A DNA stretch of 32,000 bases from assembly GCA_001192655.1 (NCBI GenBank), contig BBVC01000019.1, positions 1-32,000 of the forward strand, given 5' to 3'. Below the pieces are notes generated by a model. The model did no database searches, was not told the DNA's origin, and saw only the letters and a program-made list of their open reading frames with translations. A program made the position numbers and the translations under genes. This DNA is from Caedimonas varicaedens. Lineage in GTDB: Bacteria; Pseudomonadota; Alphaproteobacteria; Caedimonadales; Caedimonadaceae. Shown one piece after another: positions 1-21,772 of the stretch. Position 1 is the first letter of the stretch. Each line of letters begins with the position of its first letter.

Positions 1-2340
<2,340 letters not shown>

Positions 2341-7736: not shown

Positions 7737-8644
7737 TAGCTAAAAACCTTTAAAATGGTTATATTATGGATAATTTTTAAGAGGATTATTCCATGACCTA
7801 TTCATTAGATTTTAGACTTCGTGTTTTATCTGTAAAAAAGAAGAAAAATTTGAGTTTTGCTGAAACGGCGGATCTCTTTGGTGTTGGAGTGACCAGTCTT
7901 GTCAGATGGGTCAAGAAGCCTGAGCCTCAGACACATCGTCATAAACCAGCCACTAAGCTTAATATGGATGCCCTTAAAGAAGATATACAGCTTTATCCTG
8001 ATGCTTATCAGTACGAGAGAGCAGAACGTCTTGGTGTGAGCTCTATGGGGATATGGCACGCTTTAAAACGCTTGAATGTGACCTATAAAAAAAAAACGAC
8101 TCAAACATCCCAAGGCCGATCCAGAAAAGTCGTGCTACTTTTTGTCAAGAGCTGAAAGCTTATGAAGAAGCAGGGCATCCTATCATTTCTCTTGATGAAT
8201 CTGGATTTGCACACCATATGCCACGCACTCATGGTTATTCTCCAAAAGGAAAGAGATGTGAGGGGATTCATGATTGGGGAGCAAAGGGACGAACGAATGT
8301 CATCGGCGCCTTATTCCAAGGTCTGCTATTGACCGTGAGCTTGTTCTGCTTCTCGATTAATACCGAGGTGTTTACACAATAGATCATTGACGATTTACTT
8401 CCGAAACTGCCTCCTGAAAGCGTCCTTATTTTGGATAATGCCACCTTTCATAAGGGAAAAGCGATGCAAAAAGCAATTGCTGAGGCAGGGCATATCGTGC
8501 TGTATCTGCCTCCTTATTCTCCAGACTTTAATCCCATCGAGCATAAATGGGCACAAGCAAAAGCAATTAGACGCAAAAAAAGGTGTTCTATCGAGCAATT
8601 ATTTCAGGATAATAAAATATGACCGTTTTATATGTTGTTAGCTA
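7737..8644 (+). mobile_element. IS630/Tc1-mariner family insertion sequence with intact terminal inverted repeats and a TA target duplication
   Basis: IRL TAGCTAAAAACCTTTAAAATGGTTATATT (7737-) vs the reverse complement of the right end, TAGCTAACAACATATAAAACGGTCATATT (8644 downwards): 24 of 29 positions match. TA flanks both sides (7735-7736 and 8645-8646). Confidence 0.8.
7793..8622 (+). pseudogene. IS630-family DDE transposase, inactivated by frameshifts and an in-frame TAG
   Basis: The HTH N-terminus (ORF 7793..8155) ends after the A10 run at 8087-8096. The continuation ..LKHPKADPEK / ..ATFCQELKAYEEAGHPIISLDESGF.. lies in two other frames. TAG at about 8381 replaces the expected Trp (..FTQ*IIDDLLP..). 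The C-terminal part ..LILDNATFHKG...PPYSPDFNPIEHKW.. carries the D,D,E residues. Confidence 0.8.
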
Positions 8645-14408: not shown

Positions 14409-14592
14409 TTTATCCTTCAATCACTATTGCTTGAATATTTCCCATTTCTAACACAGCTTTGAAAGAATCGTAAGACCTTCATGGAAAACTTTTTAATGGT
14501 TTTAAAAAAATACACTTTACATTCTTATAAGAATCAATAAAGATTTAATAAAATTATAATAAAAATGGCTTAATAAGGGGAGACTTTAATAG

Positions 14593-16548
14593 ATGAATGA
14601 TTTCAATGATAAAAATTTCATGTGTCGTGCATTGAATACAACAATTCTTGCTTCTGCTTTTCTTTTGATTTCTGCTTGTAGTGAAAATCAGATGGGCAGT
14701 AATACGGAGAACAACTCTACGCATAGTAAATCGATCAAACAGATTGTTGCTGAGCATAAAGATAAAAATACCAAAAAAGGAGAGATCGCCCAGGGTGTTG
14801 ATTTTATGCTGGCGGGGAATTATGACGAAGCAGGTACTAAATTCAACCATATTCTAACATCAGACCCCACTAATGGGACAGTGCATCTTCTGAATGCGAT
14901 CAATTATCAACTGAAAGCAAAAGGAGGGGATATAGGACAGCTTGATATTGCGGAAGCGGGTTTGGTTCAAGCACTTAAGTTCAACCCTACGGATGCTCTG
15001 GCTTCGCTTCAATTGGGACGCGTCAAGAAATCAAAGAAGGAATATCAAAAAGCCCAGGAAGAATTCGCCAATACGCTCTTGCTTGACCCAGATAATAAAC
15101 AGGCTATTTACGAATTGGCCACCACATCCTACCTTATGGGTGACCTCAAAACAGCGCGTGTTGCCATTGAGCGCTATTTAAAAGCTCATCCTGACAAGCC
15201 TGAAGGATTGCAATCGGCTGCTATTATTCGCGCAGCTTGTGGTGATTCTGTTGCGGCGAAAAACGCCCTGGTTAAATTAAAATCCATTAAAGACCAAGAT
15301 TTTCGTGCAAAAGAAGCCCAACGACGCGTTCTGGATTGGAAGAAACTTTATGATGAGGGTCTGATCACCCTGGCTCAGGCCGCGCCGTCAACTCCCCCTG
15401 ATGTAATATCAACAGCTCCCGAACTTGTCGCACCAGCTGCTGATGCTGCCGCAGCTCCGCCCGCCGCACCTCCTGCAGCACCTGTTGCTGGTCCTGGTGC
15501 CAAACCCACGATGGTGGTGATTGATGCCCTTGTGATGCGAAGCAGTGAAGCAGGCACGACCAGTAAGGGAAATAATATCCTTGAAAATTTTGCTGTGACT
15601 TTAGCGCCTGGAACTCATTTGAAAGCGAGAGCAAAAGGGTCTGGAAACGGCCCAACTAATTTTGAGAATGTTAATGTCTTCCCAACTAACGCTGCTGCTG
15701 GAGTCAATATTGCCAGTACTATTGCAGGAGGAAGCCAAAACCCCTTTTCTATATCTCGACTTTTTGTGCAAGGTGTGACTTTTGGAAGCGTTCAGTACAG
15801 TCTTAATATTGCCAATACAGATAAGCTGACAATTCAGGTCATGGATCGTCCGTCGGTGACAACGATTTTGGGACAAAAAGGAGAATTTTTCTCAGGAACA
15901 GAGTATATTTTGGGTCTTGCTGGGCAATTTGGCGGAAGTATTACGCGAACTCCCGTGGGTATTGAGCTTGTCGTAACGCCGACAGCCTATGATCCTGAAA
16001 CTGATACAGTGACTTTAGATATTCGTATGTATGGAAGTTTGCAAAACCAGGATAACCCACCTGCTGACGTGACGAAAACTTTTGCTCAATTCAGTGTATC
16101 GCGCGTTTATACAACCGTTAACATGAAAATGGGTGAAACCATTATGCTAGGGGGAATTCAAACACGCACAGACCAACAGGATAAGACTGGTTTTCCTGGA
16201 CTTCAGGATATTCCAGGAGTTCAATATCTTTTCTCCAATGAATCTACATCCAGTGAACGCAAAGTTGTCACATTCCTGATTACGCCTCGTATGGCTGCAG
16301 ATGCGAAGAAACTGACCCAGATTCATTTGGCGAAAGACAATACAAAAGATCGCCCTATTTTATCAGAACTTGAGCTGAGGCACAAAGACTGGTTTGTGGC
16401 GCCTATGCCCAATTGGGTTACGCATTACAGAATGATGGATGGTCTTTATCGGGATTTCCGTACAGGAGATGTTCCGCCTATAGATTGGGATCAAACAGAT
16501 AGTTTGGAAGAGCAACTGGAAAGCTTGCGTACATTCTTCTATTATTAA
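14593..16548 (+). CDS. lipoprotein with an N-terminal TPR module, a Pro/Ala linker and a C-terminal secretin (type II/III secretion system family) channel domain
   Basis: Lipobox LLISAC (Cys29). TPR-like repeats at residues ~65-255. Linker at residues 261-305 (AQAAPSTPP...AAPPAAPPAAPVAGPGAKP). Secretin core from ..MVVIDALVMRSSE.. to the hallmark GETIMLGGIQ...KTGFPGLQDIPGVQYLFSN...KVVTFLITPRM (about residue 567). An 84-aa tail ends in FFYY. RBS AGGGGAG lies upstream of the ATG. Confidence 0.8.
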   Translation: MNDFNDKNFMCRALNTTILASAFLLISACSENQMGSNTENNSTHSKSIKQIVAEHKDKNTKKGEIAQGVDFMLAGNYDEAGTKFNHILTSDPTNGTVHLLNAINYQLKAKGGDIGQLDIAEAGLVQALKFNPTDALASLQLGRVKKSKKEYQKAQEEFANTLLLDPDNKQAIYELATTSYLMGDLKTARVAIERYLKAHPDKPEGLQSAAIIRAACGDSVAAKNALVKLKSIKDQDFRAKEAQRRVLDWKKLYDEGLITLAQAAPSTPPDVISTAPELVAPAADAAAAPPAAPPAAPVAGPGAKPTMVVIDALVMRSSEAGTTSKGNNILENFAVTLAPGTHLKARAKGSGNGPTNFENVNVFPTNAAAGVNIASTIAGGSQNPFSISRLFVQGVTFGSVQYSLNIANTDKLTIQVMDRPSVTTILGQKGEFFSGTEYILGLAGQFGGSITRTPVGIELVVTPTAYDPETDTVTLDIRMYGSLQNQDNPPADVTKTFAQFSVSRVYTTVNMKMGETIMLGGIQTRTDQQDKTGFPGLQDIPGVQYLFSNESTSSERKVVTFLITPRMAADAKKLTQIHLAKDNTKDRPILSELELRHKDWFVAPMPNWVTHYRMMDGLYRDFRTGDVPPIDWDQTDSLEEQLESLRTFFYY

Positions 16549-16590
16549 GAAAGAAAAAGGCCCGGACTTAATTATTTAAATCTACAAATT

Positions 16591-16630
16591 AAAAAAGCCT
16601 CTCATATTTAAAGTATGAGGGGCTTTTTTA
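16591..16630. terminator. bidirectional intrinsic terminator between convergent genes
   Basis: 10-bp stem GCCTCTCATA (16597-16606) / TATGAGGGGC (16614-16623) with one G.U pair and a 7-nt loop, flanked by A6 (16591-16596) and T6 (16624-16629). Confidence 0.8.
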
Positions 16631-16644
16631 TGATTCTTATACGT

Positions 16645-17685
16645 TTATTTCTTGATACTGATATCTGACAGGCTTGCGTTGGCCACACGCCATAGCTCAC
16701 TTGTAAGATCAGTATTTGCAATAAATTCATAGGGAACCTTGAAGAAGCCTCTTTGTCCGTGAAGCGCTACTCCCCACTCAGTCCCCCAGGAATTAGCGAC
16801 CCAAAAATGTCCGCTGTATCCACCGGTTGTATCATGGTCATCATGCCCGAGAATGGCAACGGCATGACCCCCGAGAATTTCCTCTTTATTCGTATTAGGC
16901 ATAGGAACGTATCCTGTGTTTGCAACAACATCTGATTCAAACGAATCATAAACTGTAAAGCCCATTAAGACAGGATATCCTTGAGACAGGGAAAGCTTGA
17001 CTGTGTTAATATCTCCAGGCTTGATTTCTTCTGTACCAATGTTGCTTGCATCCTTGTTATATTTTGCATGAGCATCGGCAATTACAGGAGGATGCTGGGT
17101 AAACTTGCTGATATCATATTTCCAATCCCCCTCATCAGGAGCACCATAATTATGAAGCACCCAAACAGCGTCTGCGATGCTGGCTCCAGAGTCCTGATTG
17201 ATATAGTTGTGGCTTGAATCGCTCATATGCTTGCGCTCGTAATAATAGTGATAGAGCCTTGAAAGCGTTTGCACCTGAGCTTTTATAGCGCTAACACTCA
17301 AGGCGTGTTCTACTTTAAGCAATTCCAGCGTTTTGATGACACGTACGCATTGAGCTGAACTGTTTGACGTGCAAGACCCCAACTCTCCCTGATCAACGAT
17401 CACAGCATAAGGCGTCATATCTGAAGAAGTAGGAACCTTGGCATGTAATTGAAGGGGAGATAAAGCTTTTTTACCTTGTTCTCGTCGCTCATCATGAATG
17501 TCATTAACAGTTCTTAAAAGTTCTTTCATATGGGGCGTTGAGGGAAGTAAACCAAAGGCATGTTTTGGTTTTACGACATTATGGTGTTCAATTTCTTCGA
17601 TAGGAGTGTGGTGTGAAGCAAATAGAGGCACAGTTAAACAGGTAGTTAAAATAAGTGAGTATTTGAATTGTTTAAGGCAAGTCAT
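16645..17685 (-). CDS. secreted papain-like cysteine protease (peptidase family C1-like)
   Basis: Signal peptide MTCLKQFKYSLILTTCLTVPLFA. Catalytic contexts in canonical order: DQGELGSCTSNS (Gln/Cys), GGHAVAILGHD (His), VANSWGTEWG (Asn-Ser-Trp-Gly). Confidence 0.8.
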   Translation of the reverse strand: MTCLKQFKYSLILTTCLTVPLFASHHTPIEEIEHHNVVKPKHAFGLLPSTPHMKELLRTVNDIHDERREQGKKALSPLQLHAKVPTSSDMTPYAVIVDQGELGSCTSNSSAQCVRVIKTLELLKVEHALSVSAIKAQVQTLSRLYHYYYERKHMSDSSHNYINQDSGASIADAVWVLHNYGAPDEGDWKYDISKFTQHPPVIADAHAKYNKDASNIGTEEIKPGDINTVKLSLSQGYPVLMGFTVYDSFESDVVANTGYVPMPNTNKEEILGGHAVAILGHDDHDTTGGYSGHFWVANSWGTEWGVALHGQRGFFKVPYEFIANTDLTSELWRVANASLSDISIKK

Positions 17686-18004
17686 CCTTTAATCTCCTTG
17701 TTGATGATAGTTCCAGGGAATTGGAACCTTTCAAATCATGTTCCTAGTAGTATTAAAAGATGGTAAATTATTTGCTAAATAAATATTAATTAGAATTAAG
17801 CGTATAATATAAAATATTTTTATTATTGAAATATTTTTCTTTATTTAATTATTTTTAATTTAAACAAATAGTTATAACTTATATTATTAAATAAGATTAT
17901 GAAAAAATAGCATTAAAGAAGATTTTTTTATTTTAAATTTTTAGATGAGAACTTATACTTGTTTCAAGTCTTGCCATCTTTCCCATGAATAGCGGTTTAT
18001 TGAC

Positions 18005-18830
18005 GCGATCATGGCCAACAAGACCAATACCTAGCAAGCCTTTCCAATTTATCATTCCAACCTTTCTCTAAGGTCGCCGCAACTAATTGGTTGGCAGGAT
18101 TCACTTCTTCATAACGCCTCTGAGCAAGTTGCACTTCATACTCTGCCCTCTTTCAAGAGCCACTGTTGATTCATGTCCATTTTACGGCGTTCCAGTTCTT
18201 TCCAGGCTTCTTGTGCAATTTCTAATTGGGCAGGAACCATCACCTCTAAAATCCTCTTTGTAATAGCGGCATCAAGAGGAGCACCTTTCATCCACATACA
18301 AAGCTTGTTTACACCTGTTTTCCTGAGTTTCCAATTACATATATAACCTGAGTTTCCAATTAAGAAGAGTGAGTGCCTACTTTGAGCTTCCTGTACCCTA
18401 ACAGACATACGATTCCCGCACTCCCTACACATAAGAAGACTTTGAAGAAGGGCTGACCACCCCCTTCGCGCATAGCCTCTGATACCAGAGTGTGTCCTCC
18501 CTTGTTAATATTGTTTGCTAATATCTGCAACTGGTGTCTTTTCGGATAAAAATCGAGCATAAATTCAGAGAAATTAAGGTCTTTAAAATTATGTCTGAAA
18601 CTTACAGGAATTTTGGAAGGAAACATCATCCACGCTTCAACAACTTTTGTGTACAATACTTTCAAACCTCATTGGAGTCTTGAGTTTTTGCCTGTTGAAC
18701 GCTGCGATCATGCTTTTTTGATCCTTGGACTATATTCATAGGGATAATCCTCTGTAAAGCTGCCAGGTTTGCTGGATTGAAGTATAGTGAACCTGTACAT
18801 ATTCTACCCAGAGCTTGTCATTAAAAAATA
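18005..18830 (-). pseudogene. large serine recombinase remnant; C-terminal recombinase/zinc-ribbon/coiled-coil part only, frameshifted, catalytic N-terminal domain absent
   Basis: Minus-strand fragments in several frames: ..FTILQSSKPGSF.., ..LLMCRECGNRMSVRVQ...GYICN.. (zinc beta-ribbon), ..PLDAAITKRILEVMVPAQLEIAQEAWKELERR.., ..QLAQRRYEEVNPANQLVAATLEKGWNDKLERL... These strings are typical of large serine recombinases. There is no intact ORF and no resolvase catalytic domain before ccmD. Confidence 0.65.
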
Positions 18831-18875
18831 AATCACCTATAACTTGCAAGTCTTCTATCTTGAGTTTGGTATAAC

Positions 18876-19013
18876 ATGACTTCAGAGACTTATGAATTTT
18901 ATATTATTGGCGCTTATGGCGTGGCAGGATTTATTTTTTTAGGGATCTTTTTTTATTCGTGGGCACAACTCAGGCTTGCCCGTCGAAAGTATAAACAACT
19001 CACTACAAAATGA
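18876..19013 (+). CDS. ccmD: heme exporter protein CcmD (45 aa, below the ORF-track size cut-off)
   Basis: Hand translation: MTSETYEFYIIGAYGVAGFIFLGIFFYSWAQLRLARRKYKQLTTK. It has a single TM helix followed by a basic tail, as in CcmD. The TGA stop overlaps the ccmE ATG (ATGA at 19010-19013). Confidence 0.75.
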   Translation: MTSETYEFYIIGAYGVAGFIFLGIFFYSWAQLRLARRKYKQLTTK

Positions 19014-19492: not shown

Positions 19493-21772
19493 ATGGCTGA
19501 GTTTGGTGAAAGCGCTCTTATCTCGTTGATTTTTATCTCAGCCTTTCAAATTTTTATACCTCTCATTTTTTATAAAGCTATGCCTGAAACCATTTTGCGC
19601 CTAGCCCAGACAACGCAATATTTTCAGTTTTTCCTTATCATTCTTGCATTTTCAACGCTCATTTATTCTTATGTTGTGACAGACTTGGGAATCTTTAATG
19701 TGGCCATGAATACTCATCATGAAGCACCCCTGCTTTACAAAATCACAGGAGTCTGGGGGAATCATGAAGGGTCAATGCTTTTGTGGCTTTGTATCCTGAT
19801 TTTTTACGGTAGTGCGGTGGCGTCTGTTTCTTCCTGCCCTTTTTCGCTCAAGATAAAAGTTTTAAGTGTGCAGGGTTTGCTCTCCTGCGCGTTTACTCTT
19901 TTCGTCTTCTATACGTCTAATCCTTTTCTGAAAGCGCCTGTTTTTTTATCAAGTGGGCGAGATCTGAATCCTATTTTACAGGATCCTGCTCTTGCTTTTC
20001 ACCCGCCCACACTTTATTTGGGCTTTGTGGGATTCTCTATTGTTTATAGTTTTGCTTTAGCTTCTCTTTTAGAGAAAAAACCTGATTTTCAATGGGTACA
20101 ATGGGTGCGTCCCTGGGCTTTGATGGCGTGGAGTTTCCTCAGTCTGGGCATTACGATGGGCAGCTGGTGGGCGTATTATGAACTGGGATGGGGTGGCTGG
20201 TGGTTTTGGGATCCTGTGGAAAATGCATCTCTGATGCCCTGGCTTGTGGGAACGGCGTTGATCCATGCTCTGGCTGTTGCCCAAAAAAGACATCTCTTGG
20301 TAAGGTGGTCTTATTTTTTGTGCATTCTGTCTTTCCTTTTAAGTTTGATCGGAACTTTTCTTGTACGGTCTGGCTCTCTGTCGTCGGTTCATACTTTTGC
20401 CAGTGATCCTGCTCGAGGCACCTTTCTGCTTGTCATATTGGCGGGATCTTTTCTGTTATCCATGAGCATCCTTGCTGTTCGTTTTAAAAAAATTTCGATT
20501 TATAAAAAACTCACCCCTCTTATATCCCGTGAAAATGGAATTCTTTTTAATAATCATTTTCTGTTGACTCTTGCTTTTACAGTTCTTTTGGGAACGCTTT
20601 ATCCTCTTCTCATTGAAGCGATAACAGGCGAGTCTATTACAGTGGGCGCTCCTTATTTTAAGGCAACATTTGTTCCTCTTGCTCTTCCTCTATTGGGGCT
20701 TATGGGGTTGAGTCTATGGATGACGTGGGGGAAGGGGGGAACATTGCAAAAAATAAGTCCCCATCTATGGTTTCCTCTTGTCATGACTTTGGGAGCAGGG
20801 ATAGGGCTACTTCTTTTTTACCACCATCATAATTGGCACTCTATTTTGATGACTGCAGCAGGAGTTTGGATTCTTGTGTCGACACTTGGTGCATTTATTC
20901 AAAAGCGTTCCCAAAATCCATTTTCCATGCTTCTTGCCCATGGGGGGCTGGCGATTGCCATTCTGGGAATGGGGATAGATACCCTGGGAACGCAGGAAAA
21001 GCTTGTGGCACTCAGGCAGGGAGAATCCATAGAGTTCCAGGGTTACAAAATTGAACTACAATCCGTTCAGCGTCATAAATTCCCCAACTATGAGGCTGAG
21101 CGTGCAACAATCTCGCTGAAAAAAAAAGGAAGAACATCTATTCTGTTTCCTGAGAAGAGGTTCTATAGAGCGCATCAAACCCTGACAACGGAAACGGCCT
21201 TGCATCATTTCTGGTTCTCTAACCTTTATTTTGCCTTGGGCCCTCTTTTGACAGGAGATCGATGGACATTGCGTGTCTATTACCACCCTCTGGTCGAGCT
21301 TATTTGGTTGGGGGGAATTTTATTAGCTACAGGGGGATTTCTGGGGCTTATTCCTAGGCAGATTTTCAGAAGAAAAATGCGTAAAAAGGGACTCTCTCTT
21401 ATTTTATTCCTGTTTTTGGGGAGAGTATTTCCTGCTGAAGCTGTAGAAATCGGTGAGCGTCTTTTAAATCCCGTGCTAGAACAACGCGCCCGTATCCTTT
21501 CTAGCGAGATTAAATGTCCTGTTTGTGCGGGGCAGTCTATCGAAGATTCTCAAGCTCCCTTGGCACGAAAGCTGAGGCGATCGATTCGTGAATCCCTGCT
21601 TGAAAACAAGACAGATGAGGAAATTCGGCAGAAGCTGATTCATCTTTATGGCGAAAATGTTCTGTTTAAGCCTGTATTTGATTTCAAAAATTCTCTTTTA
21701 TGGATTCTTCCGTTTCTCATTGGTTTGGGCAGTGTTGGATTGACTCTGTGGCGCTTTTACAGGAAAAAATGA
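19493..21772 (+). CDS. ccmF: cytochrome c heme lyase subunit CcmF continuing in frame into a CcmH (CycL) domain (759 aa)
   Basis: CcmF: WWD motif WGGWWFWDPVENASLMPWL and many TM helices (residues 1-628). From Met629 (ATG 21377) it reads MRKKGLSLILFLFLGRVFPAEA...IKCPVCAGQSIEDSQAPLARKLRRSIRE...LYGENVLFKP plus a C-terminal TM. This is a CcmH with its CxxC motif. No stop codon separates the two. Confidence 0.85.
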   Translation: MAEFGESALISLIFISAFQIFIPLIFYKAMPETILRLAQTTQYFQFFLIILAFSTLIYSYVVTDLGIFNVAMNTHHEAPLLYKITGVWGNHEGSMLLWLCILIFYGSAVASVSSCPFSLKIKVLSVQGLLSCAFTLFVFYTSNPFLKAPVFLSSGRDLNPILQDPALAFHPPTLYLGFVGFSIVYSFALASLLEKKPDFQWVQWVRPWALMAWSFLSLGITMGSWWAYYELGWGGWWFWDPVENASLMPWLVGTALIHALAVAQKRHLLVRWSYFLCILSFLLSLIGTFLVRSGSLSSVHTFASDPARGTFLLVILAGSFLLSMSILAVRFKKISIYKKLTPLISRENGILFNNHFLLTLAFTVLLGTLYPLLIEAITGESITVGAPYFKATFVPLALPLLGLMGLSLWMTWGKGGTLQKISPHLWFPLVMTLGAGIGLLLFYHHHNWHSILMTAAGVWILVSTLGAFIQKRSQNPFSMLLAHGGLAIAILGMGIDTLGTQEKLVALRQGESIEFQGYKIELQSVQRHKFPNYEAERATISLKKKGRTSILFPEKRFYRAHQTLTTETALHHFWFSNLYFALGPLLTGDRWTLRVYYHPLVELIWLGGILLATGGFLGLIPRQIFRRKMRKKGLSLILFLFLGRVFPAEAVEIGERLLNPVLEQRARILSSEIKCPVCAGQSIEDSQAPLARKLRRSIRESLLENKTDEEIRQKLIHLYGENVLFKPVFDFKNSLLWILPFLIGLGSVGLTLWRFYRKK

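What the first reader, a model, noticed from the sequence alone, without database searches (positions are those of the whole stretch)
14593..16548. Stand-alone lipoprotein fusing a TPR (pilotin-like) module to a secretin channel, with no secretion or pilus machinery nearby
Read directly from the ORF, the architecture is as follows. A lipobox LLISA|C (Cys29) comes first. Residues ~65-255 form about 190 aa of TPR-like helical repeats (AGNYDEAGTKFNHILTSDPTN; YQKAQEEFANTLLLDPDN; LKTARVAIERYLKAHPD). Residues 261-305 are a Pro/Ala linker. A secretin core follows with the hallmark GETIMLGGIQ..GFPGLQDIPGVQYLFSN..VVTFLITPRM. The last 84 residues end in FFYY. I see no N0/N1-type periplasmic ring domains of the kind GspD, PilQ and InvG use to dock to an inner-membrane platform. 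No pilin, ATPase, platform or prepilin peptidase gene occurs anywhere in the 32 kb. The flanks are pntAA and a secreted protease. Known TPR lipoproteins (PilF/PilW for PilQ, TadD for RcpA) act in trans as pilotins, and liposecretins such as HxcQ or BfpB pilot themselves through their lipid anchor. A covalent TPR-secretin lipoprotein encoded as an orphan would therefore be a self-contained, self-piloting outer-membrane gate of unknown substrate. This is the best candidate for an undescribed system in the window.
Basis: partly seen in the sequence, partly recalled or inferred. Interest (0 to 1): 0.72.

Follow-up and report, generated by a model that had tools for sequence, protein, structure and literature searches.

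The report
TPR-fused lipoprotein secretin lacking N-domains
This gene of the Paramecium endosymbiont Caedimonas varicaedens encodes a real outer-membrane secretin channel whose usual periplasmic docking domains are replaced by a lipid-anchored TPR module; it belongs to a large uncharacterised family and most likely serves a stripped-down type II secretion/pilus-like machine encoded elsewhere in the genome.

Summary
ORF 14593-16548 (+) encodes a 651-aa protein with these parts: a lipobox (Cys29), about 6 TPRs (res 48-255), a Pro/Ala linker, a secretin core (res 306-567; PF00263, 91 bits) and a conserved 84-aa C-terminal helical domain. There are no N0-N3 domains. The window is from Caedimonas varicaedens (Holosporales).

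The "self-contained orphan" reading is only partly supported. A published COG table for this genome lists GspE/F/G/O (but no GspC/L/M) and a full Tad set. On a related 291-kb contig the GspE-GspF-pseudopilin locus has no secretin, and the TPR-secretin lies about 190 kb away. In another relative two prepilin genes sit 0.6 kb from it. So the protein is most likely the displaced, unconventional secretin of a minimal type-IV-filament machine, with a built-in pilotin.

The protein also defines a large undescribed family: at least 345 clusters at 50% identity, mostly lipoproteins ending in F-L-Y-Y. No locus has a T2SSE or T2SSF gene within 10 kb, and only one has prepilin genes. Of the 59 members outside the Holosporales-like clade, 47 lie beside one of two neighbour types. 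One is giant Sec-signal lectin proteins. The other is a binding-protein/pentapeptide-repeat operon. An autonomous, cargo-dedicated secretin therefore remains possible.

Verdict: new variant of a known kind; interest 0.6.

The parts
14421..14592 (+). AT-rich intergenic region shared with divergent pntAA. It holds the presumed promoter and a GGGGAG ribosome-binding site about 10 nt before the ATG.
   Evidence: Sequence read directly. The consensus scan found no strong sigma-70 site on the + strand here, so the promoter is inferred only.
14593..14679 (+). Lipoprotein signal peptide, residues 1-29, with lipobox LLISA|C. Cys29 is the predicted lipidated N-terminus of the mature protein, and residue +2 is Ser.
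   Evidence: Cys29 invariant in 26 orthologues; >=90% in 58 members; lipobox in most full-length family representatives. Lipidation itself is not tested.
14734..15357 (+). TPR module, residues 48-255: 13 helices, about 6 repeats.
   Evidence: Pfam TPR_19/17/2/14 score above their cut-offs. AF2 pLDDT is above 90. TPR_2 is found in 50 of 58 family members.
15358..15507 (+). Pro/Ala-rich flexible linker, residues 256-305.
   Evidence: pLDDT is about 42 and no secondary structure is predicted. Length and sequence vary across the alignment.
15508..16293 (+). Secretin core, residues 306-567. It starts at the canonical V-x-I-D-A-x-V-x-x-V motif and includes GETIMLGG...GFPGLQDIPGVQYLFS...FLITPR.
   Evidence: PF00263 at 91.2 bits. 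hhalign to a GspD-type profile: 99.3%, E 2.5e-20, residues 302-567. Foldseek hits to T2SS, T3SS, T4P, Tad and phage secretins at E 1e-15 to 1e-11. PDB sequence hits are best to GspD/PulD.
15625..15750 (+). Lineage-variable, disordered insertion inside the first barrel hairpins, residues ~345-386. It is probably a surface or lip loop.
   Evidence: This is the gappiest block of alignment A1. pLDDT is below 50 for residues 349-381. It is unmatched in hhalign. The location in the assembled channel is inferred.
16294..16548 (+). Family-specific C-terminal helical domain, residues 568-651, ending FFYY, plus the stop codon. It occupies the position of the S-domain of T2SS secretins but has no detected homology to it.
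   Evidence: Invariant W600, N607, Y619, R620, R623, D626, W632 and F648. The profile match runs to the last position in nearly all of the 150 best representatives. Helices 568-626 and 638-650. No Pfam hit.
16590..16630 (.). Bidirectional intrinsic-terminator-like hairpin (19-pair stem) between the secretin gene and the convergent C1-peptidase gene.

Best explanation
The gene encodes the outer-membrane secretin of the reduced type-IV-filament machine of Caedimonas varicaedens (type II secretion or pseudopilus type). That machine is encoded elsewhere in the genome.

Shown: the architecture.
- A lipoprotein signal peptide.
- A TPR module of about 6 repeats.
- A flexible Pro/Ala linker of about 45 residues.
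- A complete secretin core with no N0-N3 domains.
- A conserved C-terminal helical domain.

Inferred: the mechanism.
1. The protein is exported by Sec, lipidated at Cys29 and carried by Lol to the inner leaflet of the outer membrane. Ser at +2 fits the E. coli sorting rule.
2. The lipidated TPR acts as a built-in pilotin. PilF, PilW, Tgl and TadD do this in trans, and the lipid anchors of HxcQ and BfpB do it in cis. It is then expected to sit at the rim of a 12-15-mer double-barrel ring, with the linker giving the needed slack. The C-terminal helices would staple neighbouring subunits or the TPR, in the place of an S-domain.
3. There is no periplasmic N-domain vestibule, and the genome has no GspC. 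Coupling to the inner-membrane GspE/GspF/GspL-like platform and its ~230-aa pseudopilins would therefore be loose, or mediated by other small proteins.
4. The likely cargo is Sec-exported folded proteins, that is, host-directed effectors. No cargo was identified.
For: - The architecture and the absence of N-domains are shown.
- The secretin core is closest to T2SS GspD. NCBIfam gives GspD 63.7 bits, above PilQ, MshL and SctC. The best PDB sequence hits are PulD/GspD at E~1e-15, against RcpA 2e-11 and PilQ 1e-9.
- The window protein is GAO97814.1 of C. varicaedens.
- The published COG table for that assembly lists COG2804 GspE, COG1459 PulF, COG2165 PulG, COG1989 PulO and COG1450 secretin. It does not list GspC, L, M, J, K or PilT.
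- JGI names members of this protein's own cluster 'general secretion pathway protein D'.
- On contig Ga0370205_000031 the operon GspE(MshEN+T2SSE)-GspF-496aa-184aa-158aa plus two prepilin-type genes has no secretin within 10 kb. The same contig carries TPR-secretin P0050 about 190 kb away.
- In L024 the orthologous prepilin pair lies 0.6 kb downstream of the TPR-secretin.
- Type-IV-filament genes are scattered in these genomes.
Against: - No type-IV-filament gene lies near the TPR-secretin in the window or in about 24 of 25 Holosporales-like loci.
- I could not read the C. varicaedens genome. I therefore cannot show that COG1450 in the table is this protein, or that no conventional GspD exists.
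- Every characterised secretin that works with an inner-membrane platform uses N0-type domains to dock to it, and these are absent here.
- In the wider family the gene never lies within 10 kb of a T2SSE or T2SSF gene (96 loci; prepilin genes only in L024). Outside the Holosporales-like clade, 47 of 59 members instead have other conserved partners. This argues that the family does not need such machinery.
- The L024 adjacency is a single case.
Confidence: 0.5

Rival explanations
1. An autonomous, cargo-dedicated secretin. The TPR-liposecretin would be the whole outer-membrane translocon of a two- or three-gene system that works without any type-IV-filament, T3SS or phage inner-membrane partner. 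The periplasmic TPR would capture Sec-delivered cargo, as the TPR of Slam/T11SS or two-partner systems does, and the secretin gate would open for it. In Holosporales the cargo genes would simply have drifted away.
For: - The family has at least 345 clusters at E<=1e-30, all of about 600-720 aa with the same C-terminal domain.
- In 96 loci (about 1.26 Mb) there is no GspE/PilB or CpaF Walker motif, and no tblastn hit to GspE or GspF.
- 18 of the 59 members outside the Holosporales-like clade lie within two genes of giant Sec-signal lectin proteins: Jacalin, Ricin-B/DM9, tectonin, FG-GAP/UnbV. In the adjacent same-strand cases the gaps are -4 to about 200 nt.
- 29 more lie in an SBP-secretin-PPR operon with 4-nt overlaps.
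- Context type tracks the secretin phylogeny.
- No member has N0-N3 domains.
- L007 and L009, in the Holosporales-like clade, have two paralogous Sec-signal 600-690-aa proteins just downstream.
Against: - No secretin is known to gate without an energised partner.
- Adjacency to cargo does not exclude use of a T2SS encoded elsewhere.
- None of the 21 counted Holosporales-like loci (window included) has either recurrent neighbour type.
- The Holosporales-specific links to prepilins and to a secretin-less GspE/F locus point the other way.
Confidence: 0.25
2. An exopolymer export channel. On this reading it is a secretin-based analogue of the TPR-plus-porin exporters BcsC, PgaA, PelB and AlgK/AlgE, or of the PilQ/GspD 'slime nozzles'. 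The neighbouring lectins would be matrix proteins.
For: - The order of TPR then outer-membrane channel mirrors BcsC and PgaA, and NCBI even names the protein BcsC.
- Weak NCBIfam hits to BcsC, PgaA and PrsT TPRs.
- GGDEF and cNMP signalling genes recur beside family members.
- Secretins have been shown to be needed for slime secretion, and a pentapeptide-repeat protein co-purifies with PilQ nozzles (PMC12475490). A periplasmic pentapeptide-repeat gene follows the secretin in about 23 loci.
Against: - No glycosyltransferase, synthase, Wzx/Wzy or OPX cluster recurs among neighbours in 96 loci.
- The BcsC model scores 34.6 bits against a cut-off of 858.
- Nothing polysaccharide-related lies in the window.
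Confidence: 0.08
3. A Tad (Flp) pilus component: a fusion of the TadD pilotin with an RcpA/CpaC-type secretin, serving the Tad system of the genome.
For: - JGI labels several cluster members 'Flp pilus assembly protein TadD'.
- The genome has a Tad gene set.
- The RcpA-TadD complex (8ODN) shows a TPR lipoprotein decorating a secretin, and RcpA is among the PDB hits.
Against: - The COG table lists a separate CpaC secretin (COG4964) in the same genome.
- The similarity to RcpA is weaker than to GspD.
- There is no PF13629 N-domain.
- No cpa/tad gene lies near any family member; no CpaF-type Walker motif was found in 96 loci.
Confidence: 0.07
4. A decaying relic with no current function in this reduced endosymbiont genome.
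For: The genome carries IS elements and rearrangement scars close by.
Against: The 651-codon frame is intact, with its own ribosome-binding site and terminator. Orthologues at 40-97% identity keep about 100 invariant positions, including the lipobox Cys and the secretin motifs. One frameshifted copy (L008) shows what decay looks like.
Confidence: 0.03

Closest known systems
T2SS secretin GspD/PulD/XcpQ
   Same: The secretin core is homologous (hhalign 99.3%). It gives the best sequence and fold matches among solved secretins, and the G-E-T-x-x-L-G-G...D-I-P...L-F...I-T-P-R motif block is canonical. The genome reportedly has GspE/F/G/O.
   Different: There are no N0, N1, N2 or N3 domains, so no GspC-binding surface. 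There is no recognisable S-domain. The protein is lipidated and carries a TPR module. It is not encoded in a gsp operon. TIGR02517 scores 63.7 bits against a cut-off of 351.
Liposecretins (HxcQ of P. aeruginosa, BfpB, TcpC, MshL, R64 PilN)
   Same: An N-terminal lipobox on the secretin itself, which in HxcQ and BfpB replaces a separate pilotin (established knowledge).
   Different: Those proteins keep N0/N3-type periplasmic domains, have no TPR, and are encoded inside their system's operon. MshL and PilN models score far below their cut-offs (50 vs 250; 18 vs 288).
TPR lipoprotein pilotins PilF/PilW/Tgl (T4aP) and TadD (Tad; RcpA-TadD structure 8ODN)
   Same: An outer-membrane lipoprotein with about 6 TPRs associated with a secretin. 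PilW is the best-scoring TPR family in NCBIfam (51 bits).
   Different: In the known systems the pilotin is a separate polypeptide acting in trans. Here it is covalently joined to the secretin by a flexible linker. PilW's cut-off (154 bits) is not reached, and TPR similarity is generic.
TPR-plus-channel single-chain exporters: BcsC/PgaA/PelB (polysaccharide) and Slam/T11SS (protein)
   Same: The domain logic matches: a periplasmic TPR followed by an outer-membrane pore in one chain. As with Slam, many family members are encoded next to a likely cargo. There is a weak TPR_Slam hit (E 8e-4).
   Different: The pore here is a multimeric secretin, not a monomeric 14-18-strand beta-barrel. There is no homology beyond the TPRs.
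PilQ nozzle with pentapeptide-repeat protein NIES39_A07680 (Arthrospira; PMC12475490)
   Same: At family level, a periplasmic pentapeptide-repeat protein is encoded immediately after the secretin in about 23 loci. This echoes the co-purifying PilQ/pentapeptide-repeat pair.
   Different: No pentapeptide-repeat gene lies near the window's gene or near any Holosporales-like member. The cyanobacterial PilQ has N-domains and belongs to a T4P system.

Membership tests
Secretin superfamily (Pfam PF00263) | Secretin domain scoring above the gathering cut-off, with the conserved C-terminal motif block | tested here: met
   91.2 bits against 27.5. 58 of 58 family members hit. hhalign 99.3%. Fold matches to all secretin classes.
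Secretin superfamily (Pfam PF00263) | Assembles into a 12-15-mer gated double beta-barrel in the outer membrane | not testable with these tools
   Only monomer prediction was available.
T2SS secretin GspD (TIGR02517) | Whole-protein score at or above the equivalog cut-off | tested here: not met
   63.7 bits against 351.35. Only model positions 337-599 are matched.
T2SS secretin GspD (TIGR02517) | N0-N1-N2-N3 periplasmic domains (Secretin_N, PF03958) that dock GspC | tested here: not met
   No PF03958 hit at E<=1. Template columns 1-330 are unmatched. The model shows only TPR helices and a linker before the barrel.
T2SS secretin GspD (TIGR02517) | Encoded with, or at least co-occurring with, gspE/F/G in a genome that has no other T2SS secretin | tested here: inconclusive
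   It is not in an operon. Co-occurrence is reported in the COG table of PMC11724238. A related contig has a secretin-less GspE/F locus. The C. varicaedens genome itself could not be scanned.
T4aP secretin PilQ (TIGR02515) | Score at or above cut-off; AMIN/N0/N1 domains | tested here: not met
   55.4 bits against 284.35. No N-domain hits.
Tad secretin RcpA/CpaC | N-terminal PF13629 (T2SS-T3SS_pil_N) domain plus a secretin, encoded in a tad/cpa locus | tested here: not met
   No PF13629 hit. No CpaF-type motif in 96 loci. A separate CpaC COG is listed for the genome.
MSHA secretin MshL (TIGR02519) | Score at or above cut-off | tested here: not met
   50.3 bits against 250.2, over residues 453-566 only.
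Liposecretin (self-piloting lipoprotein secretin) | Lipobox with conserved Cys at the end of a signal peptide on the secretin polypeptide | tested here: met
   LLISA|C with Cys29 invariant or at least 90% conserved. A lipobox is present in most full-length representatives.
Liposecretin (self-piloting lipoprotein secretin) | Acylation and Lol-dependent, pilotin-independent outer-membrane targeting | not testable with these tools
   This needs globomycin or palmitate labelling and a Cys29 mutant.
TPR pilotin PilW/PilF (TIGR02521) | Score at or above cut-off; a separate lipoprotein acting on its cognate secretin | tested here: not met
   51 bits against 154. Here the TPR is fused to the secretin. 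The resemblance is functional, not a family membership.
Cellulose synthase subunit BcsC (the name in GenBank for GAO97814.1) | NF008520 score at or above cut-off; a C-terminal 16-strand porin; a bcs operon | tested here: not met
   34.6 bits against 858, on the TPRs only. The C-terminus is a secretin. There are no bcs genes in the window. The database name is a misannotation.

The most novel reading that the evidence does not exclude
TPR-liposecretins may be the channel of an unrecognised secretion route. In this route a secretin works without any type-IV-filament, T3SS or phage inner-membrane partner. The lipid-anchored TPR would both pilot the ring and receive Sec-delivered cargo. The cargo would be the giant lectin-type proteins encoded next door in free-living bacteria, or effectors encoded elsewhere in Holosporales endosymbionts. 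In one clade the system would be assisted by a periplasmic binding protein and a pentapeptide-repeat ring.
Probability: 0.25. Interest if true: 0.85.

Novelty: new variant of a known kind. Interest (0 to 1): 0.6.

Why it matters
All characterised secretins (T2SS, T4P, Tad, T3SS, filamentous phage) use N-terminal ring domains to dock to an inner-membrane machine, and many need a separate pilotin. This family discards the docking domains and fuses a pilotin-like TPR lipoprotein to the bare channel. It is widespread (at least 345 clusters at 50% identity), yet it is annotated inconsistently as BcsC, GspD, TadD, PilF or 'TPR protein'.

If it serves the minimal GspE/F/pseudopilin sets of Holosporales, two things follow. 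It shows how far a type II-like system can be reduced. It also names the missing outer-membrane component for the secretion of endosymbiont effectors into protist hosts.

If the family instead works on its own beside its lectin cargo, it would be a new kind of secretion system. It would also be a direct test of whether a secretin gate can open without a piston.

Tried and rejected
Searches that led nowhere or hit limits
- The genome-contig scan with the single protein found nothing. I therefore could not scan the C. varicaedens or Paracaedimonas genomes for gsp/pil/tad genes directly.
- Literature searches for Holosporales plus secretin/T2SS, 'orphan secretin', 'liposecretin', 'TPR-secretin' and secretin plus tectonin found no description of this family. 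George et al. 2020 is not held.
- Extending the window with the look-up of encoding contigs showed only more housekeeping genes on the right. The left-hand look-up had no record.

Ideas considered and rejected
- The C1 peptidase neighbour as a conserved cargo: rejected. It is replaced by an LD-carboxypeptidase plus the ATP synthase operon in the 78% and 68% relatives.
- A BcsC identity: rejected on score and on the nature of the C-terminal domain.
- Fold search could not assign the core to one secretin class. T2SS, T3SS, T4P, Tad and phage secretins all match at E 1e-15 to 1e-11.
- My first prepilin regex, which required Gly at -1, missed the L024 pilins. A relaxed pattern found them, and only them.

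Left as speculation
- The GspE(MshEN)-GspF-496-184-158 operon may be a reduced MSHA-type system, with this protein as a fused MshN-MshL. This rests on my recollection of the msh operon order and was not tested.
Full report
**1. What is in the sequence**

ORF 14593-16548 on the + strand encodes 651 aa. A GGGGAG ribosome-binding site precedes the ATG. A 19-pair hairpin at 16590-16630 separates the gene from the convergent downstream gene. With pntAA divergent upstream, it looks like a monocistronic unit.

Pfam gives Secretin PF00263 at 91.2 bits (cut-off 27.5) for residues 413-567. Several TPR families score above their cut-offs between residues ~115 and 233. No Secretin_N, PF13629 or BON hit appears even at E<=1. 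NCBIfam equivalogs for GspD, PilQ, MshL, SctC, PilW and BcsC all match only partially and far below cut-off.

A first AlphaFold2 model, built from 26 orthologues, was mediocre (pLDDT 60). A second, built from 58 diverse family members, reached pLDDT 77. Its parts are:

| Residues | Feature | pLDDT |
|---|---|---|
| 48-254 | 13 TPR helices | above 90 |
| 262-290 | disordered linker | about 42 |
| 307-567 | long beta-hairpins of a secretin barrel | mostly 80-95 |
| 349-381 | disordered insertion within the barrel region | below 50 |
| 568-650 | C-terminal helices | 45-86 |

Profile-profile comparison with a GspD-type alignment gives 99.3% probability and E 2.5e-20. It aligns residues 302-567 with the secretin core, starting at the canonical V-x-I-x-A-x-V-x-E-V motif. 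The template's N0-N3 columns have no counterpart. Foldseek matches secretins of T2SS, T3SS, T4P, Tad and phage f1 about equally well. By sequence the best solved relatives are T2SS PulD/GspD.

**2. Where it comes from**

The exact protein is GAO97814.1 of Caedimonas varicaedens (Holosporales), the R-body-bearing killer symbiont of Paramecium. It is deposited as 'cellulose synthase subunit BcsC'. JGI calls members of the same 90% cluster GspD, TadD or PilF. The conflicting names show that the protein is uncharacterised.

The other ORFs scanned in the window are housekeeping genes plus IS fragments. They include bamD, recN, lpxC, cca, pntAA/AB/B, ccmE/F, mfd, rimM, trmD, rplS and pdhA/B. No pilus or secretion gene is among them.

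**3. Orthologues and their context**

Twenty-six full-length orthologues of 40-97% identity all keep the TPR-plus-secretin architecture, Cys29 and about 100 invariant positions. The ones that carry names come from Caedimonas, Ca. Paracaedimonas acanthamoebae and Holosporales MAGs.

In these loci the neighbours are housekeeping genes that differ between lineages. Examples are ssb-gyrA-coaD upstream in the Paracaedimonas group, pntAA upstream in the Caedimonas group, and murI/ldcA in L001. The C1 papain-like protease beside the window's gene is not conserved. The 78%-identical relative keeps the whole upstream synteny but has ldcA and the ATP synthase operon downstream.

**4. Is there machinery elsewhere?**

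I could not scan the genome directly, so three indirect lines bear on this.

(a) The COG table of Castelli et al. 2025 (PMC11724238) for this very assembly.
- It lists GspE/PilB, PulF, PulG, PulO and COG1450 secretin.
- It lists a full Tad set: Flp, CpaA, CpaB, CpaC, CpaE, CpaF, TadB, TadG, TadD.
- GspC, L, M, J, K and PilT are absent from the lists held.

(b) Locus L024, from the sister group of the core clade. Two prepilin-type (N_methyl) genes lie 0.6 kb downstream of the TPR-secretin.

(c) The orthologues of that prepilin pair.
- On JGI contig Ga0370205_000031 (291 kb) the pair sits beside an operon GspE (MshEN+T2SSE, 571 aa) - GspF (401 aa) - a 496-aa bitopic protein - 184 aa - 158 aa.
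- No secretin lies within 10 kb, by HMM search of all six frames.
- The same contig carries a TPR-secretin (P0050) about 190 kb away, in the ssb-gyrA-coaD synteny.
- In other alphaproteobacterial contigs the prepilin pair is itself an orphan among housekeeping genes.

Type-IV-filament genes are thus scattered in these genomes, so an orphan position carries little weight. A secretin-less GspE/F/pseudopilin set does exist in at least one close relative.

**5. The wider family**

A profile of the secretin core plus C-terminal domain, searched exhaustively against 1.84 billion representatives, finds 345 clusters at E<=1e-30. In the 150 best, the match almost always runs to the last profile position. 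The proteins are about 600-720 aa, with about 300 residues before the core. Most full-length ones have a lipobox and end in F-L-Y-Y-like residues. Of 58 sampled, 58 have Secretin and 50 have TPR_2.

I fetched 79 metagenome loci and several genome loci. The results were:
- Across 96 loci, ±10 kb, there is no GspE/PilB or CpaF Walker-A motif.
- There is no tblastn match to GspE or GspF.
- Apart from L024, there are no prepilin-like N-termini.

Instead, of the 59 unique members outside the Holosporales-like clade, 47 have one of two kinds of neighbour within two genes.

- Type (i), 29 loci. A tightly coupled operon of a TAXI/NMT1_3-type periplasmic binding protein, the secretin, and a periplasmic pentapeptide-repeat protein. 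Nearby are cNMP-binding SulP and Na/sulfate transporters, a Cache-HAMP cyclase, cNMP-GGDEF, YHYH and Cache-MFS genes.
- Type (ii), 16 loci, plus 2 with both types. Giant Sec-signal proteins with Jacalin, Ricin-B, DM9, tectonin or FG-GAP/UnbV domains. In the adjacent same-strand cases the gaps are about -70 to about 200 nt, often 30 nt or less.

An NJ tree shows that context type follows the secretin phylogeny. The Holosporales-like clade is a separate branch in which none of the 21 counted loci has either neighbour type.

One published precedent links a pentapeptide-repeat protein physically to a secretin: Arthrospira PilQ nozzles (PMC12475490). I found no paper describing this family. That absence is limited to the open-access library and to exact terms.

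**6. Interpretation**

For the window's gene I favour, at about 0.5, the displaced but unconventional secretin of the minimal type II/pseudopilus-like machine of Caedimonas. The lipidated TPR would be a built-in pilotin, and the C-terminal helical domain would replace the S-domain.
- Shown: the domain architecture, its conservation, the absence of N-domains, the closest similarity to GspD, and a secretin-less GspE/F locus in a relative.
- Inferred: lipidation and Lol sorting, the cis-pilotin role, ring stoichiometry, coupling to the inner-membrane platform, and protein cargo.

The main rival (0.25) is an autonomous, cargo-dedicated secretin. It rests on the family-wide lack of type-IV-filament neighbours, the universal loss of docking domains, and the recurrent cargo-like neighbours. 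It is weakened by the lack of any precedent for an unpowered secretin gate, and by the Holosporales-specific links to pseudopilins.

The minor rivals are:
- an exopolymer channel (0.08; no synthase genes anywhere nearby);
- a TadD-RcpA fusion (0.07; the genome lists its own CpaC);
- a relic (0.03; strong conservation).

**7. Novelty and verdict**

The secretin and the TPR are known modules, and liposecretins and TPR pilotins are known concepts. As far as I could find, three things are undescribed:
- their covalent fusion on a channel that has lost all N-domains;
- the family-specific C-terminal domain;
- the family's size and its non-pilus genomic contexts.

I rate it a new variant of a known kind, with interest 0.6. 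The GenBank name BcsC is a misannotation (34.6 bits against a cut-off of 858).

Noticed in passing
window 421-1928 and 7793-8155: An IS21-type IstB ATPase (286 aa) with a truncated integrase-core ORF, and an IS630-type transposase HTH fragment (120 aa). These are mobile-element debris in a reduced endosymbiont genome.
   Followed up: partly
window 16645-17685 (-): A Sec-signal C1 papain-like cysteine protease (Pfam 28.4 bits), convergent with the secretin gene. It is a candidate secreted effector. It is not a conserved neighbour: the 78% and 68% relatives have LD-carboxypeptidase and the ATP synthase operon there.
   Followed up: yes
window ~17700-19000: A low-GC stretch (0.35) holding only short fragmentary ORFs without Pfam hits. 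It lies exactly where synteny with the 78%-identical relative breaks, so it is probably a rearrangement or insertion scar.
   Followed up: partly
window 19493-21772 (+): CcmF carries a C-terminal CcmH domain (residues 643-758) in one 759-aa ORF. This is a CcmF-CcmH fusion.
   Followed up: no
L031, L039, L041, L045, L075, L076, L084 and about 20 more loci: A conserved operon of a TAXI/NMT1_3 binding protein, the TPR-liposecretin and a periplasmic pentapeptide-repeat protein, often with 4-nt overlaps. Around it are cNMP-binding SulP/STAS and Na/sulfate transporters, a Cache-HAMP nucleotide cyclase, cNMP-GGDEF, YHYH and Cache-MFS genes. It is an unexplained signalling/transport-secretin gene cluster.
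   Followed up: partly
L011, L013, L015, L016, L036, L058, L063, L073, L083, L090, L092, L093: Giant Sec-signal proteins (0.5-2.3 kaa) with Jacalin, Ricin-B, DM9, tectonin or FG-GAP/UnbV domains are encoded directly beside family members. L011 is Janthinobacterium sp. 17J80-10 CP035311.
   Followed up: partly
L099 10001-16784 (JGI Ga0370205_000031): A minimal type-IV-filament locus: GspE with an MshEN domain, GspF, a 496-aa bitopic protein, 184-aa and 158-aa proteins, and two divergent ~235-aa prepilin-type genes. It has no secretin. The gene order recalls mshE-G-I-J-K (my recollection, untested). An F-box-like protein is encoded 3 kb away.
   Followed up: partly
L005 4393-5682, L024 7169-8497, and the left end of the P0003 locus: A BepA-like M48 peptidase with TPRs lies within 1.5-10 kb of the TPR-secretin in three lineages of the Holosporales-like clade. 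This may be chance or a link to outer-membrane protein quality control.
   Followed up: no
L006 6189-9693; L007 12181-16352 and L009: Sec-signal proteins lie next to the TPR-secretin in Holosporales-like MAGs. In L006 they are F-box-like/LRR (BspA-type) proteins. In L007 and L009 they are two paralogous 600-690-aa proteins without Pfam hits. They are possible effectors or cargo.
   Followed up: partly
L008 10001-11962; L095: L008, binned as 'Janthinobacterium lividum' but with Holosporales-like synteny, carries the secretin split into 236-aa and 437-aa ORFs. This is a frameshift or assembly error, and probably a mis-binned contig. L095 carries a tandem duplication of the SBP-secretin-PPR unit.
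   Followed up: no
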